Shown: positions 10,339 through 63,670 of the stretch, one piece after another
How positions within the stretch are numbered: the first letter of the stretch is position 1
Layout of the letters: the number at the start of each line of letters is the position of its first letter
NCBI GenBank assembly: GCA_951406725.2
Contig: OX597820.1
Coordinates: 81,654,001-81,718,000, forward strand
Direction: 5' to 3'
Length of the DNA stretch: 64,000 nucleotides
Source of the DNA: Octopus vulgaris
Lineage: Eukaryota
Position numbers and translations under genes: made by a program
Notes under the pieces: model-generated
Database searches by the model: none
The model's input: only the letters and a program-made list of their open reading frames with translations
What the model was told of the DNA's origin: nothing

Positions 10339-10420
10339 GTAGGGGGTATAATTCCAAACTTACAGGGAAAAATTCAATTTAGCAATTCCAAATCAAATTT
10401 CACAATATATGATATATGTA

Positions 10421-10663
10421 TATAGTTAAGAGAAATAACCTCTATAAAGTAATTCAATAGTGAAAGATTTTATCTATATCATATAGATAAAATTTAAATA
10501 TTCTATAATAAATATCATTCAAAGAATCACTAAATTAAATATATGTTTATTTAATTTTGTGATTTTTTGAATAATATTTACTATAGTATATTTAAATTTT
10601 TCTATATGATATAGATAAAGTTTTTCACTATTGAATTACTTAATAGAGGTTATTTCTCTTAAC

Positions 10664-10668
<5 letters not shown>
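10421..10668. repeat. Imperfect ~250-bp fold-back palindrome next to (TA)n
   Basis: tatagttaagagaaataacctcta... pairs with ...tagaggttatttctcttaactata, and pairing continues to the centre near 10545. Confidence 0.9.
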
Positions 10669-10717
<49 letters not shown>

Positions 10718-13529: not shown

Positions 13530-13624
13530 ATATTAGGGTAATAAGAATTATAGAAATTATTATTACCAGTGGACTATCACAAAAAAATTAGTCAATAGAC
13601 TATATATTATTCGCATAAAAATAT

Positions 13625-13959
13625 CGTGTACATTAAAACACATTAAAAGGCTTCCAAATAGGAAAGCCTTGTGCTAGAAAGAGCAGTAGAAAACTAAAAC
13701 CACTAATTAGGGATAAATTCTCGAAAGGAATGAAAATTAAAAACGTTTACCATCTAATTTAGTTCCTAGACCATGGTTTCTGACTAATTACTGGAATTAG
13801 TCGGAAACCATGGTCTAGGAACTAAATTAGATGGAAAACGTTCTTAATTTTCATTCCTTTCGATAATTTATCCCTAATTAGTGGTTTGAGTTTTCTACTG
13901 CTCTTTCTAGCACGAGGCTTTCCTATTTGGAAGCCTCTTAATGTGTTTTAATGTACACG
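13625..13959. repeat. 335-bp fold-back palindrome (165-bp arms, 5-nt loop)
   Basis: Arms are complementary with about 7 substitutions. Loop ACTGG at 13790-13794. Confidence 0.97.
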
Positions 13960-14051
<92 letters not shown>

Positions 14052-51311: not shown

Positions 51312-51570
51312 ATCTTTTTACTCTTTTACTTGTTTCAGTCATTTGACTGAATGTGGAGCACCGCCTTGAAGGGTTTTATAGTCGGCCCTAGGACTTATTC
51401 GTATATATATAAAAGTAATTTTAGAGACAGTTTTGATTGAGTTGAAGGTGGTTCTATCTCTAAAATTACTTTTATATATACGAATAAGTCCTAGGGCCGA
51501 CTATAAAACCCTTCAAGGCGGTGCTCCACAATCAGTCAAATGACTGAAACAAGTAAAAGAGTAAAAAGAT
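51312..51570. repeat. ~260-bp palindrome with SINE-tail arms
   Basis: About 115-bp arms, nearly perfect, around a ~28-nt spacer. Confidence 0.95.
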
Positions 51571-55415: not shown

Positions 55416-58400
55416 CTGAAAGTACGCCGGTTTAATGAATACACCAATATTGTTGTTAGTTCTCATAGTTTTTATTAACTTGGAACTTTTATATTTAAAT
55501 ATACACAGCAGTTGAATAAAGAGAACAACTTTCTGGGGATATTGAAAAGAATAAGTACAAGGTTTTTTTACTGTACGATATGCTACTCGTAGATAGTAAT
55601 GCAAAGAGTTCATTACTAATGAGAACAAATTAAGCGGGAAGAATGAGAACGTCTCGCCACAAAGCTGGCTGACATGGCTTCGAGTAGTAGCTGATACCGT
55701 TCTTGGCAGAATACTAAGTGAAAACACCTACTATGGAACTGAGTGACATAGTTCTATGTAAACCACAGATGTTCTATAAGGAAACTCAAACACGGTGAGA
55801 AACAAGGCTCCGTGTGGACTTCTGGATGGATCTGTTTGAGGTCCGATTCGTCAACTATTATAATGCGAAACGAAGTTTCTAGAATGTTTGACCAAACTAT
55901 TTGGCGAAGAAAATTTACGCATTTCCTTTGAAGTTTATCGCGTCAACTGTTACAAGTCAACCAATACAAATTGGTTAAATCATGTTCATAGAGGTATCTC
56001 TACCTGATTTAGAAATATCCTTATGCAGAGGTTCTGACCTTGAATTGTGAGAGAGATGATTTCGAATCTTGGTTGAAGTCTTGTAACAGTTTTTATTTTA
56101 TTTAGACACAAGGCCAGCAAATTAGAGAAGAGATGGTTAGACGATATAATAAGCCCTAGTACTTGACTAGGATTTATTTTATCGACCTCCAGGAAGATGA
56201 AAGGCAAAGATAACCCCGGTGAGAATTAATATCAGAATGTAAAGAGAAGGAAAATATATCATTGGTCAATCCATCTGACTTTCTAAAGATTCTTCTAACC
56301 CACCACACTTATGATGAGGATAGTGATATTTTCTTTATCAAGGTAAACTGGTCAAGAGATAAAATAAGACAATGGACTATAAAGAACAAGGGGTTTACAA
56401 TACATCTGGGTTGGACCAACAAAGTTATAATAAGGAAACAGAGGAAAATGCGAGGAGGTAGTAGAAGTCATGGATTAAATATTTAATGAAACATGAAATA
56501 AGTATAATATATATAACTTGTAAATTAAAATAAGTTGTATTTTTTTAAATGTAAAATTGTTACACGCCTTCACACGTATGAGAGCCCACTGACTAGGTTC
56601 GGTCGGAGTATACAACCACTCTGGTCTTCTGTCGTTCAACGAGTTCTGGTGCAAACAAAAGGTGTGTGTTAGCATGTTTTTGTATGGGATTTTAGGAATA
56701 TCCCAAAGTGTTCGAGTTCTCTTTCATTTACTTATAAACTTATATAAGGTACGTTACTAACACTGACATTTTCACTTTTAAAAGAGTATTCCGAAAATAG
56801 TTCGCATAGAATTTGAAGGATGCTTTGATATATGTCTACTGGGGTTTCGTAAACCTGTCTCTCTACTTACTGTAAAATCGCTTTTTATTGAAATTCACTT
56901 ACTTGTTAGATTTCTTTCTTTATTTATTTTTACATTCTTTGTGATGTTTTCTCTTCTTGGTCCTCCTGCACCTACTCCTGATCATGATAAGACGATGGAG
57001 CGGTGTTGTTGCTTGCTTCGTTCGGAGGGTAGATTCTTTACACTTGTTTCTAGAAATGAGCACGATGAAACCTTTTTTCGATATTTCCGAAGTTGTGACT
57101 AATGGCACTGTGAAACTGGGGCTGGCTGGTCTTGTTTCTGCCACTGCTTTCCTTTCTTTTCTTCTCGGCTTCTGTAGATTTTTACGTTCTTCGGGATAAG
57201 AATCTATTAAGTGACTTTTACTACCGCATGTATAACAACTAGGTCTTATGCTATGTTCCTTAGTCTCGTATTGTTTATCTCCCCACTTTCAACTGGGCAA
57301 AGATGTGGTATGCTCTTTATGTTTCCAGGGCTCTTTAGAACTTAAAAGCTCATCCTGACCTCTCCAGATCACATATTCTCTCAGCACATTCGCGCTGATC
57401 TACACTACTAAAATACTTGGTGATATCAAGAAAGGAAAAAGCAGAGATTTGTTAAAATGCAGAAAACGCCATCTGTTCTGCAATTTTGGATTTGAAAACT
57501 TTATAAATAATGAGGAAATACTTATCTGCGACTAGGAATATTAAAAGCGTTAATAAAATTTCGAAAGATTCCAAGAACAACAAAGCAAAAAGCTAGAAAG
57601 AACTATTTAGCAATTCATGTGGCTAAAGTGGCATGGAAGTGAAGAAAGTGTAGCTGAGAGATGGAAGCCTTAAGCAAGAAACTGAATTGCTAATTATTGC
57701 TACTCAAGAACAAACCATAAGAACAAATTTGTTAAAAACAATGTATGGAAATGAAAAATGTATGTAAAAGAAAAATATTTACCGTGCTGTCAGTGCAGTA
57801 AGATAGCACAAAAAGTGAATGTGCTAGTAAAAGAATGTGTTAGTGAAAAAATGTGTTAGTAAAAGATAGTATTTGGTTGTCAGCCAAGCTTGTGAGTTCG
57901 AAGGGACGAAAAATTGGCATGATCACTGCCAGAGGCTATGGTATACGATACAGGATTTTATGGGCTTTCTCCATAGAGACTGATCACAATATTGAGTCAG
58001 ACTAAATATGATAGTAGAATGCAGAACGAATAAACATTGTCAGATCATAGATTTTTTTCCATCTCATAATGATAGTAGAAAATGACAAAATTGAGAACTA
58101 TCAGGGCTAGCCAGAGAGTTGAAGAGACTATGGAACATAATCGTAAAGATTGTTCTTGGGGAAATTGGTCCACTCAGAAAGTGCTATCATGTATTCTGCA
58201 AAAGTCATCAAAACAATTCTTATGATTTGAGGAGACTTGGCAGCAAACCTGATAACAAATTTATTCACTAAATTTGCATGTTATTTAGCTTTTGTAAAAT
58301 AATAGCAATATAAACCACCTCAGGTTGAATGACAGATTACTTCTAGTTTAATAACATTAAAGACTTGAAAAAGGGCACTGGAAAAAGGAAACTGAATGAA

Positions 58401-58906: not shown

Positions 58907-58954
<48 letters not shown>

Positions 58955-59027
58955 GGTATGTTGATGTAAACAAGAAAAATAGAACTCAAAATATGAGTAT
59001 ATGTATACTTTTATTAATATTTAGCAG

Positions 59028-59214
59028 AAGTAACAGAGTGACTCAAGGTCCGGGAGTTTCGTGTATTGGCACAATACCAATGTATGAAACTATCGGACCT
59101 TGAGTCACTCTGTTACTTTTACTATATGTATATATATATATACATATAGTAAAAGTAACAGAGTGACTCAAGGTCCGATTGTTTCATACATTGGTATTGT
59201 GCCAATACACGAAA
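59028..59214. repeat. Double fold-back (A-A'-A) palindrome
   Basis: AAGTAACAGAGTGACTCAAGGTCCG occurs forward, reverse, forward. Axes lie at about 59073 and in the (TA)n at about 59135. Confidence 0.95.
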
Positions 59215-59224
59215 TTGGTCCACT

Positions 59225-59284
<60 letters not shown>

Positions 59285-59473: not shown

Positions 59474-60100
59474 AGGTGGTGAACTGGCAGAAATTTTAGC
59501 ATGCCGGGCGGTATTTCGTCTGTCTTTATGTTCTGAGTTCAAATTCCACCGAGGTCAACTTTGCCTTTCACCCTTTCGAAGTCGACAAATTAAGTAGCAG
59601 TTGTATACTGAGATCGATCTAATCGACTAGCCACTCCCATAAAATTTCGGGCCTTGTGCCTAGAGTAGAAGAGAATATTTTTCCAGTTTTATGGCGGTGA
59701 GCTGGTAGAAACGTTAGCACGGCGGGCGAAATGCTTAGCGGTATTTCGTTTGCCGCTACGTTCTGAGTTCAAATTCTGCCGAGGTCAACTTTGCCTTTCA
59801 TCCTTTCAGGGTCGATTAAATAAGTACCAGTTACACACTGGGGTCGATATAATCGACTTAATCCGTTTGTCTGTCCTTGTTTGTCCCCTCTGTGTGTAAC
59901 CCCTTGTGGGCAGTAGAGAAATAGGTATTTCGTCTGTCTTTACGTTCTGAGTTCAAATTCCGCCGAGGTCGACTTTACCTTTCATCCTTTCGGGGTCTAT
60001 AAATTAAGTACCAGTTGCGTTCTGTGGTCAATCTAATCAACTTGCCCCCTCCCCCAAAATTTCGGGCCTTGTACCTAGAGTTGAAAAGAATATTTTTCTA
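59474..60100 (+). mobile_element. Cluster of three SINE units
   Basis: Three repeats of gttctgagttcaaattc..ccgaggtc.acttt.cctttca.cctttc, with two different tails. Confidence 0.9.
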
Positions 60101-61389
60101 GTTTTATTCCGTCCGAACATACCCTAAAGATATATTATCTCAATTCAAAATCCAACTTTAGTTGTAATGTTTTTAAGTTTTCTCATCTTCATTTCTAAAT
60201 TTTTTTCAGAGTTACTTATTTAAAAATAACTGTACCTGCGCCTGTACGTTGCCTGCGACTCCATTCTTCTTCAGGCAACGCTTCTTAGAAGCACAAAAAT
60301 AATTGTTATTGGGTAAAACTCAAAAAGCATCAAGGCTAAAATATTTTTATTTCAAAATATTAGACAATATTAAAAAAGTGAACATTATAAACTGACAAAA
60401 ATTTAATTATGTAAGAAAAGTCAATGAGGAGCTCGGAACGAAGACGGAAAATGTTAATAAAGCAGTAGTTGATGAAGCGAATAAACAAAGTCCGAAATCA
60501 TTATTGCAAATATGAAACAAAAGTAGTCTGCTCACATTCATATTCTTCAGAAATACCTTGAGCACACCGACAGTCTTCTCATTGATTAAGCCTATGAAAC
60601 CATCATGATAAACCAAGCATTGTATTGCCAGCATAAAGCATATCGATTCGGTTTCTTCCTAATTTTCTGAAAACGTATATTTATAAATGAAATTTTGGAG
60701 AGATACGTTTCGAGAGTGTAGAGTACGATGGTGTTAACAAAATAAAAATCAAGGAATTTAAGATCATTTTCCTCTCTCCATCCCCAATGTGTTTTTTCAC
60801 AACTCTCTTTAAAATACATAGTTTCAAACGACATTTTGCAGAAAAACGTTTGTTTTGAAAGTGTGGAGTCCAAATTTTTTTTAACAGAAAATTTAAGAAA
60901 ATAGCGATATTTCGGCTCGTTCACTCTCCCTACTGATCCAACTTTGCTCCCACCAATCTCCTAACATAAACAGTTTTCATTTATTCAGATTTCTCTGTTT
61001 GAAGCATTAACTTCACGTAATCCACACTCTCAAAATTGTATTTCTGCAAAATGTCATATAAAATGTCGTTGCCGAATCGAGCACTTGATGTTGAACAGTT
61101 TCGAGAAGAAACCGTTCACCCAAACGATGTTTGAAGCATTAACTTCACGTAATCCACACACTCAAAAATGTCATTTAAAATATGCATTTTCATAAGATTT
61201 ATGACGAAACACAGTCGGGAAGAGGAAAATGTTCCCAAACTTCTTCTGAAAAGGATTAGTGGTATCAACATATTCTACACTCTCTCGATGTATCGCTGCA
61301 ACATTTCATTGAAAAATATGCGTTTTAGAAATTAAGGTAGAAACAAAATGGGTAGGGTACCAATTTGTAGCTATATATAAATAGACATA

Positions 61390-61644: not shown

Positions 61645-63670
61645 ATTTCTTTCTTGCCCACAAGGGTCCAAACATAGAGGAGACAATACAAATAAGGAAG
61701 AAGTCGATATACCGAATGGTTTTACACATAAAGATGACTAGAAGTTTAAAATTTTGATTAAAATGAATGATAGACAAACCAATTTCAAACACAATGAAGT
61801 GGGGACGGGCTCTGCTTCGACACCGCAAGCCCTGTGTCGCCACTGTAACATTTTAATGACCATATGGATACACTATGCGGGTTCATTCTTTCTAATGATG
61901 TTCGCAACAGCCTTCCATCTTTTCCCATATATCTCAGGCAACAGGCATTTTCTCTCCAGCTTTTTTTTCCTATTAAGGTGGAAAATAAAGAAGTTTACTA
62001 GCACAAGACTGGAGATAAACGCATTCTGCTGCCAGTTGGTGAAGACGCATGCCAGTAGGTGCCCAAACAAGTCTGGTATACTGTAATAAAGCTCGTAAGG
62101 GAGACCATCTAGCCCAGGTGACTTGTCCTCGCTACAGTCGGACACAGCTTCCTCCACCTCTGCAGCTGTTATCGGCCCTTCATAGCATTTTGCTTCCCGC
62201 CTCGTGAGACGCGGTATACCTTGAGGTCCCTCCTGCACTCCGGCCTGCCGCCCTTCCCGAAAAGCATGGCGAAGTGCTCCTGGAAGACCTTACACATCTC
62301 GGGTTCGTTTACCAAATTCCCTTGTTGATTCGTCATAGACCTTATTGTGCCATCATTTTCACGTTTGGTCTGTATCACACGGGCCCATCCGGCAGCGTTG
62401 ATTCTCTCTCGTCCCATTGCACGTTGCTTAGCCCTGACTATATATCCTTCGTGTTTAGCTCGAGGTGTTGATTAAGAGCCAATCTCGCAGCTAAAACTCG
62501 GGGTGCAGAGCCAGAGTGCAATGCTTTATTTAGGGACCTAACTGAATCCCTTTATACTCTATTTTTCTTAACCACTAATTCTTTGCTGTATCTAATAGAC
62601 TAAAATTTTATAGCTCTTTTGAAGGCATACCACCATTTGTTGTTTTAATGATGGCTCCAGACAATGCCCTCAACACTAACCTAATCCGACTCCTGTACTA
62701 CTCATGAATCAAAAGAGACTTATTGAGTTTCCAGTAGCCGGATCCCTGTCTATGTAACTTATCTAAGTCCAGCCTACAGGTCACAAATTTGTGATCAGTG
62801 TAGCTGACGTGGTAAAATTGTGGACGTCTAACTAGGTTTTTATCTTTCTGCCTAATTATAATCCTATCTAAATAAGATCTAGATGACCCATCACTATTAG
62901 TCCGTGTCCGCAATGGAGCGTCTGAAACATCTAGTCTGTACCTATCTGCCAGCTGAAACCAACTGAGCACAGTTCCATCCCCCTCCCTGCAATCGTGTAC
63001 GAGCCAACGTAATTTACTCGTGCATCGCAGAATGTGTAAAGTCACCTAGCATCACTATAGTTTTAGATGTTCCTAGAAATTTCTCTAGGCCTCGAAAAAA
63101 GTCAGTCTGTCCAGCTCCCGAGGGAGAGTAGACAGCTACCAGCCTCAAGACCTTACCACTGCTGGTAGTCACTCAAGGACGATCAACTTGTCTTCCGGGT
63201 CGATAAAGATTGTTTTTGTCTCTAAATCCAAACTTTTCCTGAGCAGCACAGCGACACCTCTCCCTCCTTCAGGTAGGCATGAAGAAATAAATTTCTAATA
63301 ACCATTTAGGAATGGGGTAAAGTCTCTCTGACTACTCAGTTTGGACTCTGTGGCAGTTACAATATCCATACTATGTGACCTGAAGTCATTAAGGAAGCGA
63401 CCTTGTTTCCAATTTGATTCCAAGTCGCAAACATCCAAGCACCCTACATTTAGTGTATCCATAAACGGTCCTACTTACGGGTTGAGATGGAGGATAGTTA
63501 TTTTATCCATCAAGCCCGTATTTATGGCTGCCACCAGCCAAGCAGGGTCTACCTCGTGTGGTATATCTCCTACCTTAATCTTGGAAGTCCACTTTCGAAG
63601 ATAAGTTGGTACGTGTAGCACCTCAGCTGTTTTGAGAGTTTCCGTGTAAATTGGTGCGCAATATAGCTAC
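61645..63670 (-). mobile_element. L1/Tx1-clade LINE, decayed, RT domain deleted
   Basis: APE motifs SYLDRI, YTDHKFV, GYWKLNKSLL. SPGLDGLPYELY is joined directly to the C-terminal KRW motif. 3'UTR ends CCCTTGTGGGCAAGAAGAAAT. ORF1 remnant at 63470-63670. Confidence 0.85.

What the first reader, a model, noticed from the sequence alone, without database searches (positions are those of the whole stretch)
59028..59230. Twice-folded palindrome: first axis at an HHR stem II hairpin, second on (TA)n
Seen: the minus strand reads GAAA-CTC ccggacctt GAG-TC-ACTCTG, a stem III with a GUC cleavage triplet. An inverted copy starts just beyond the GTATTGG/CCAATGT hairpin, and the unit is mirrored again about a TA tract. 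This is an independent family showing the same architecture as 13.8 kb, plus a second snap-back on self-complementary (TA)n. The serial template-switching explanation is inference.
Basis: partly seen in the sequence, partly recalled or inferred. Interest (0 to 1): 0.7.

Follow-up and report, generated by a model that had tools for sequence, protein, structure and literature searches.

The report
Penelope palindrome with later fold-back scar
This triple mirror-image stretch is an old head-to-head stub of what is likely a Penelope-type jumping gene, carrying part of a predicted self-cutting RNA, whose second mirror and a short patch matching DNA 1 kb away were likely added much later by one DNA-repair accident; both parts are ordinary.

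Summary
The three arms are real, but they record two events. Fold 1 (58954-59135, axis 59073) is a family trait: 39 head-to-head loci genome-wide, a ~44-nt tail on exactly one arm in 34 of 39, in microsatellites. This is the footprint of Penelope-like elements. The predicted CAGAGT-CTGANGA half is absent (0 hits). Longer copies do hold a complete hammerhead, with a U3-A8 core (23 of 24), a variant already published for Schistosoma elements. True stem II is GTGC/GCAC and both arms keep it, so axis 1 is not a stem II snap-back. Fold 2 is a one-off (1 locus against 39). Arm 3 differs from its template at 1 of 79 bases; arms 1 and 2 differ at 10 of 54. Arm 3 ends in an 18-nt match to DNA 1,050 bp upstream, found only twice in 2.8 Gb; a related species shows the exact donor allele. 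Best reading: an old retroelement stub, then a later break at the TA junction repaired by fold-back and a template jump. No parent ORF was found, and no contig spans the patch junction. The scan found both kinds before, on other DNA of this genome. Interest is low.

The parts
58913..58953 (+). (CA)n tract at the left insertion boundary
   Evidence: sequence
58954..59072 (-). Arm 1: tailed, 5'-truncated copy of the element end (element sense = minus strand); 93% identical to the family reference over 119 nt
58954..58997 (-). One-sided tail (44-nt complex part), present on arm 1 only
   Evidence: tail on exactly one arm in 34 of 39 family palindromes
59030..59072 (-). 3' part of the hammerhead in arm 1: stem II 59072-59061, GAAA 59060-59057, stem III 59057-59041, C17 at 59040, stem I 3' strand 59039-59030; the 5' core is missing, so this copy cannot form the ribozyme
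59073..59073 (.). First axis: 1 nt between the two 5'-truncated ends, both at the 5' foot of stem II (+6/+7 from U3); no overlap, no filler
59074..59135 (+). Arm 2: untailed, more decayed copy (9 differences from the family majority in 54 nt; stems II and III damaged)
59129..59142 (.). (TA)7 around the second axis (59135/59136), at about the place where untailed arms of the family usually meet their microsatellite (+66 to +70)
59136..59214 (-). Arm 3: inverted copy of 59057-59135, 1 mismatch in 79 nt; unique to this locus
59211..59228 (+). Templated patch: 4-nt GAAA shared with arm 3, then 14 nt matching 58165-58178
58161..58178 (+). Donor of the patch, 1,050 bp upstream; 17 of 18 identical here, 18 of 18 with the allele seen in run X6 (organism C)
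59229..59284 (+). (TA)18 then (GA)n: right-hand remainder of the target microsatellite
   Evidence: sequence

Best explanation
The locus is an old head-to-head stub of a repeat family that is likely the end of a Penelope-like retrotransposon, and its third arm with the 14-nt patch is a younger copy of local DNA, likely made by one break-repair event at the adjacent TA tract. Step 1 (inferred): the element's enzyme nicked a microsatellite and copied the short front end of its RNA twice, from two start sites (tailed and untailed). The two truncated copies were joined at their 5'-truncated ends, which cut off the U3-A8 half of the hammerhead. Step 2 (inferred): much later the TA tract at the untailed end broke. 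The left end folded back on self-complementary TA, copied about 72 nt of its own strand across the first axis, jumped through a 4-nt GAAA match to DNA 1,050 bp upstream for 14 nt, and rejoined the right-hand TA tract. Shown: the anatomy, the family statistics, the order of events from shared mutations, and the donor match. No function is implied.
For: Family trait: 39 head-to-head loci against 1 tail-to-tail locus, this one. Tail on exactly one arm in 34 of 39, on both in 0, on neither in 5 (Fisher p = 1.6e-6). Arm 5' ends agree within 2 nt in only 9 of 39, as expected if the two arms end independently. Full hammerhead in long copies: U3 in 27 and A8 in 26 of 30 aligned copies, gaps included. 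Genome-wide pattern free at both positions: U3-A8 23, C3-A8 1, C3-G8 0 of 24. The hammerhead fold scores -10.6 against an MFE of -11.5 kcal/mol with nearly the same stems. U3-A8 is published for Schistosoma PLEs (PMC4209133, passage). Inverted pLTR, tail and (TA)n targets are published (PMC3846280, PMC8557442, passages), as are two RT start sites (PMC11167929). Timing: arms 1 and 2 differ at 10 of 54, arm 3 at 1 position (p = 9e-4); median arm identity in the family is 0.86. Patch: the 18-mer occurs twice in 2.8 Gb, both here; best local match 17 of 18 against at most 14 in 300 shuffles; run X6 has G at 58176, making the match exact. Runs X6 and X8 each hold an 80-nt contig that matches arm 2 and the axis and then leaves the arm 3 path, consistent with fold 1 without fold 2. 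Fold-back inversions of 2-150 bp are described in yeast (PMC11724301, abstract and Discussion).
Against: No RT or GIY-YIG ORF was linked to the family, so Penelope membership rests on non-coding anatomy. Rfam gave no hammerhead hit among the 150 listed of 288 matches for the window or on 6 family loci. No contig from any of 4 runs covers 59218-59236, including the genome's own species, so the patch junction is not confirmed in reads and absence in other species is not proven. The last 23 letters of the X6 and X8 contigs were not printed; that they are arm 1 is inferred from length and symmetry. Arms 1 and 2 might differ partly because they came from two different RNAs (note e1-9536500, not tested). 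7 of 24 core-intact copies are symmetric about a native 8-nt palindrome, which fits self-priming as well as two-copy joining. The 39 loci were selected by two exact 14-mers and a 21-81-nt spacer, and two of them (L083, L105) look like duplicates.
Confidence: 0.75

Rival explanations
1. A Penelope enzyme made the second fold: its endonuclease re-nicked the TA tract of the old insertion, and its reverse transcriptase or a host polymerase extended the nick on local DNA, folding back and jumping without inserting new element RNA.
For: The second axis lies where untailed arms usually meet their TA target. (TA)n is a preferred PLE target (PMC8557442) and PAc cuts both strands of AT-rich DNA (PMC11167929).
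Against: No new element sequence came in. The event is 1 against 39 in this family. None of 790 TA tracts in 600 kb of evenly spaced samples was the centre of such a fold. Host repair explains the same product (PMC11724301).
Confidence: 0.12
2. One reading: both folds come from one serial template-switching reaction, first at stem II and then on (TA)n.
For: All three arms are contiguous. A stem II snap-back product exists in the family (L114 among 39; L021). Hairpin-driven conversion could in principle keep arms 2 and 3 alike.
Against: This copy has two stems II, not one shared stem. Arm 3 shares all of arm 2's departures from the family and arm 1's. Adjacent arms 1 and 2 did not homogenise. 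The patch comes from genomic DNA 1 kb away. Contigs of two other species fit fold 1 alone.
Confidence: 0.05
3. Arm 3 is an assembly or library fold-back artefact.
For: Near-perfect palindrome with no spacer; no short-read contig crosses the patch junction.
Against: The patch carries G where this genome's donor and runs X1, X2 and X4 have A and run X6 has G, so it was not copied from the present donor. Run X1 has an 80-nt contig with arm 3's own base and 0 differences over 59146-59210, at depth 8 against 62 for single-copy flank, which fits hairpin drop-out. That base could also be an allele of arm 2.
Confidence: 0.04
4. The family is a hairpin MITE (DNA transposon derivative) and the hammerhead shape is incidental.
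For: Short palindromic copies in TA-rich sites; no ORF found; no Rfam hit.
Against: No locus has the tail on both arms (0 of 39). The axis moves from copy to copy. Unpaired long copies extend at least 250 nt upstream of the core on one side only and hold a complete core.
Confidence: 0.04

Closest known systems
EN+ Penelope-like element insertions with inverted pLTR and one-sided tail (Adineta vaga Pen2a, PMC3846280; general scheme in PMC8557442; PAc, PMC11167929)
   Same: Head-to-head 5'-truncated copies, tail on one end only, microsatellite target, hammerhead near the pLTR end, TATA-like box 35 nt upstream of U3, palindrome at some junctions.
   Different: No ORF found for this family; the copies are old (median arm identity 0.86); clade unknown; this locus has an extra third arm not seen in 38 other palindromes.
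U3-A8 type-I hammerheads of Schistosoma mansoni Cercyon PLEs (PMC4209133)
   Same: U3-A8 in place of C3-G8; type-I topology; G10.1-C11.1.
   Different: Here stem III has 4 bp with a 9-nt loop rather than the minimal helix III, and there is no extra base between positions 9 and 10.1; cleavage untested; the window copies lack the 5' core.
Local fold-back inversions and templated insertions at DNA breaks (yeast, PMC11724301; MMBIR/FoSTeS and polymerase-theta insertions named from recall and from that paper's Discussion)
   Same: Inverted copy of the sequence next to the break, length within 2-150 bp, microhomology at the switch, short patch from nearby DNA.
   Different: A germline event in an animal genome; the priming hairpin is a (TA)n tract; two consecutive templates; the enzyme is unknown.

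Membership tests
Penelope-like element (EN+) | ORF with telomerase-like RT and GIY-YIG endonuclease | tested here: inconclusive
   No such ORF adjoins any fetched family copy; one indirect protein search gave 30 loci, of which only the query's own locus held the family sequence. A small sample of an old family.
Penelope-like element (EN+) | Inverted 5'-truncated copy adjacent to the pLTR | tested here: met
   39 head-to-head loci; inverted upstream copies also in long loci L046, L049, L060, L075
Penelope-like element (EN+) | Short tail on one end only | tested here: met
   34 of 39 one arm, 0 both, 5 none; longer-arm ends cluster at +115 to +125 in 35 of 39
Penelope-like element (EN+) | Insertion in microsatellites | tested here: met
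   Flanks printed are mostly (TA)n, (CA)n or (TACA)n; read by eye, not counted against a control
Type-I hammerhead ribozyme | Core 3-UGAN-8-A ... GAAA ... UH with a 3-8 pair | tested here: met
   In the family as U3-A8, 23 of 24; not in the window copies, which are cut at +6/+7
Type-I hammerhead ribozyme | Three helices | tested here: met
   Stem I 3+5 bp, stem II 4 bp, stem III 4 bp in the family majority; fold energy near the MFE. Covariation was not tested.
Type-I hammerhead ribozyme | Match to an Rfam hammerhead model | tested here: not met
   No hammerhead family among 126 matches at E <= 10 on 6 loci
Type-I hammerhead ribozyme | Self-cleavage after the GUC triplet | not testable with these tools
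   needs in vitro transcription
Fold-back templated insertion (break repair) | Inverted copy of sequence directly adjacent to the junction, younger than its template | tested here: met
Fold-back templated insertion (break repair) | Microhomology at the template switches and a local donor | tested here: met
   TA self-complementarity; 4-nt GAAA; donor 1,050 bp away, unique in the genome
Fold-back templated insertion (break repair) | Pre-event allele seen in a relative | tested here: inconclusive
   X6 and X8 contigs fit fold 1 alone, but no run covers the patch junction
MITE / foldback DNA transposon | Equal terminal inverted repeats and a fixed centre | tested here: not met

The most novel reading that the evidence does not exclude
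Penelope enzymes return to old insertion sites, nick the TA tract and drive DNA-templated fold-back and template jumping without delivering RNA, so that these elements act as a source of local inverted duplications and patchwork scars in octopus genomes; this locus would be one such product.
Probability: 0.1. Interest if true: 0.55.

Novelty: new member of a known kind. Interest (0 to 1): 0.2.

Why it matters
As it stands it matters little: it is one dead repeat copy with one repair scar. The family adds a cephalopod example of the U3-A8 hammerhead core. Its junction statistics bear on the open question of how Penelope inverted ends form (self-priming, as hypothesised in PMC3846280, or joining of two separately primed copies): one-sided tails, mostly unequal arm ends, and a fold hot spot at a native 8-nt palindrome. 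The locus is also a datable natural example of a TA-primed fold-back with a local template jump. It would matter more only if such scars proved enriched at Penelope sites.

Tried and rejected
Rfam: no hammerhead listed for the window or 6 family loci; only sub-threshold miRNA models that match hairpins. Two 14-nt family motifs were not found in the supplement of PMC8557442 (line breaks there could hide a match), so the family is not matched to the named octopus Naiad or Hydra elements. Parent ORF: not reached by walking upstream, where homology fades into microsatellites about 300-450 nt above the core. The protein search with a Hydra-like fragment from L058 was swamped by an abundant repeat. 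The idea that the patch is the end of another repeat family was rejected: only 2 genome hits. The idea that CATATA right of axis 2 is native family sequence in register was not supported: 1 of 44 untailed arms shows it, this one. The idea that TA-centred fold-backs are common in this genome was not supported: 0 in 600 kb with 790 TA tracts. No RNA holder was listed. Missing contig cover of 59218-59236 in 4 runs proves nothing either way. Literature: no paper held 4 of 5 terms on fold-back, TA repeat and cruciform; 2 were listed for a related set; none listed describes octopus Penelope palindromes (listing only); 0 papers for C3U/G8A. Supplements of the bioRxiv preprint 10.64898/2026.07.22.740005 were not seen and could list cephalopod families. 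Look-ups by sequence in earlier scan notes found nothing relevant.

Full report
Observation. The sequence holds three inverted arms. An 18-nt motif occurs three times in the window against 0.03 expected. Arms 59057-59135 and 59136-59214 are 99% complementary around (TA)7. The unit starts at 58954, beside a (CA)n tract. The genome has 2.8 Gb in 227 contigs; earlier scan notes call it an octopus, which I did not test.

The family. A 106-nt query gave 1,012 first-look candidates; 40 were scored, and nearly all matched on both strands at one place. Two hits in 600 kb of evenly spaced samples suggest thousands of copies, a rough extrapolation. A pattern of two exact 14-mers found 39 head-to-head loci and only one tail-to-tail locus, this one. 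All 39 were fetched. A 44-nt tail is on exactly one arm in 34, on both in 0 and on neither in 5 (p = 1.6e-6). Longer arms end at +115 to +125 in 35 of 39; untailed arms mostly meet a microsatellite near +66 to +70 (read by eye). An inverted truncated copy, a one-sided tail and (TA)n targets are the published footprint of EN+ Penelope-like elements (PMC8557442 passages; PMC3846280 passages), and the tail matches two RT start sites in vitro (PMC11167929, first two of four parts read). No ORF was linked to the family, so membership is likely, not shown.

The hammerhead. Longer, unpaired copies show the real 5' half. In 30 of 32 long copies that could be aligned, position 3 is U in 27 and position 8 is A in 26, and none reads CTGATGA. 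A genome-wide pattern free at both positions gave U3-A8 in 23 of 24, C3-A8 in 1 and C3-G8 in none. Stem II is GTGC/GCAC with a 4-nt loop, stem III has 4 bp, and stem I has 3 plus 5 bp. The hammerhead fold of the family majority scores -10.6 against an MFE of -11.5 kcal/mol. U3-A8 is described for Schistosoma Cercyon elements (PMC4209133 passage). Rfam listed no hammerhead match. The window's arms are cut at +6/+7 and lack the 5' core, so they cannot form the ribozyme.

First axis. It lies at 59073, at the 5' foot of stem II, and each arm has its own stem II. Snap-back on stem II would leave one shared stem; that pattern is clear in 1 of 39 loci (L114) and in L021. Four of 39 loci have both arms ending at +5 to +9, like this one. 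Arm ends range from -7 to +34 and agree within 2 nt in only 9 of 39; the estimates are ungapped and rough in decayed copies. Among 24 core-intact copies, 7 are symmetric about a native 8-nt palindrome just upstream of the core. Unequal ends and one-sided tails fit joining of two separately primed copies, a reading I took from earlier scan notes. The symmetric class also fits the self-priming hypothesis of PMC3846280. A TATA-like box starts 35 nt above U3 and many arm ends fall at -3, which may be a transcription start; this is inference.

Second fold. Arms 1 and 2 differ at 10 of 54 positions, close to the family's median arm identity of 0.86; arm 3 differs from its template at one position (p = 9e-4). 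Arm 3 carries arm 2's and arm 1's departures from the family and crosses the first axis, so it was copied from this locus after those changes, unless the templates already carried them. It ends in GAAA and runs on for 14 nt that match 58165-58178. The 18-mer occurs twice in the genome, both here; shuffled controls reach at most 14 of 18 in 300 trials against 17 observed. Run X6 (organism C) has G at 58176 where this genome and runs X1, X2 and X4 have A. The patch has G, so it likely preserves the older donor state before a CpG change, which argues against an artefact. In one search, X6 and X8 each gave an 80-nt contig matching arm 2 and the axis and then leaving the arm 3 path; I infer that it continues into arm 1. 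X1 gave an 80-nt contig with arm 3's base at depth 8 against 62 on the flank. No run covered the patch junction, so neither presence nor absence is proven. TA-centred folds of this kind were absent from 600 kb with 790 TA tracts.

Mechanism. Inferred: a break at the TA tract, fold-back priming on TA, synthesis across the old axis, a jump through GAAA to a template 1,050 bp upstream, and rejoining to the right TA tract. Yeast fold-back inversions of 2-150 bp arise in this way (PMC11724301 abstract and Discussion). Which enzyme cut the DNA is unknown; a Penelope nick is a minority rival.

Novelty. Both layers are known kinds. Earlier notes on other DNA of this genome describe head-to-head Penelope palindromes with hammerheads, a U-A core sister family, fold-back scars and patches from nearby DNA; they are unchecked leads, not support. 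No note matched this family by sequence. Literature searches showed no description of this family. Of the retrozyme preprint 10.64898/2026.07.22.740005 I saw two passages only. Verdict: real, explained and ordinary; interest 0.2.

Noticed in passing
window 13615-13969: Palindrome with 175-nt arms, 94% complementary, next to (TA)n, with a GAAAC-CATG-GTC motif like a minimal hammerhead 3' half; a different family from this one.
   Followed up: no
window 51312-51570: Palindrome of a very abundant repeat, arms 98% complementary; the pairing continues inward past a TATA-like run and leaves about 30 nt of unrelated filler. Possibly another head-to-head Penelope stub with a patched axis.
   Followed up: no
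window 10412-10676: AT-rich palindrome, 86-nt arms 93% complementary, between (TA)n tracts.
   Followed up: no
L121, L123, L125, L127, L134, L136, L142, L116: Family copies symmetric about a native 8-nt palindrome directly upstream of the hammerhead core: 7 of 24, plus L116 among the 39. A hot spot for the first fold.
   Followed up: partly
L104, L083, L105 (axis region): Short fillers at the axis that repeat neighbouring element sequence (for example 7 nt in L104), suggesting slippage while the two arms were joined. L083 and L105 look like duplicates of one locus.
   Followed up: no
family reference, -35 to -3 from U3: TATA-like box 35 nt above the core, and an initiator-like motif (consensus recalled) at -3 where many arms end; a possible internal promoter and start site.
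   Followed up: partly
L149:2737, L158:4276, L160:7383, L196:5810, L200:9776: Five near-perfect short-gap palindromes with complex arms of 44-105 nt in 600 kb of evenly spaced samples, about one per 120 kb.
   Followed up: no
L058:1918-2415 (+): Open frame with a CxC...CPLxG and HYTG stretch resembling a Hydra-type Penelope endonuclease region (resemblance from recall), inside a 676-nt palindrome.
   Followed up: partly
window 61873-63045 (-): Broken frames resembling a LINE endonuclease and reverse transcriptase (resemblance from recall, not scanned).
   Followed up: no
window 59510-60107: Three copies of a very abundant 138-nt repeat (enormous contig depth).
   Followed up: no
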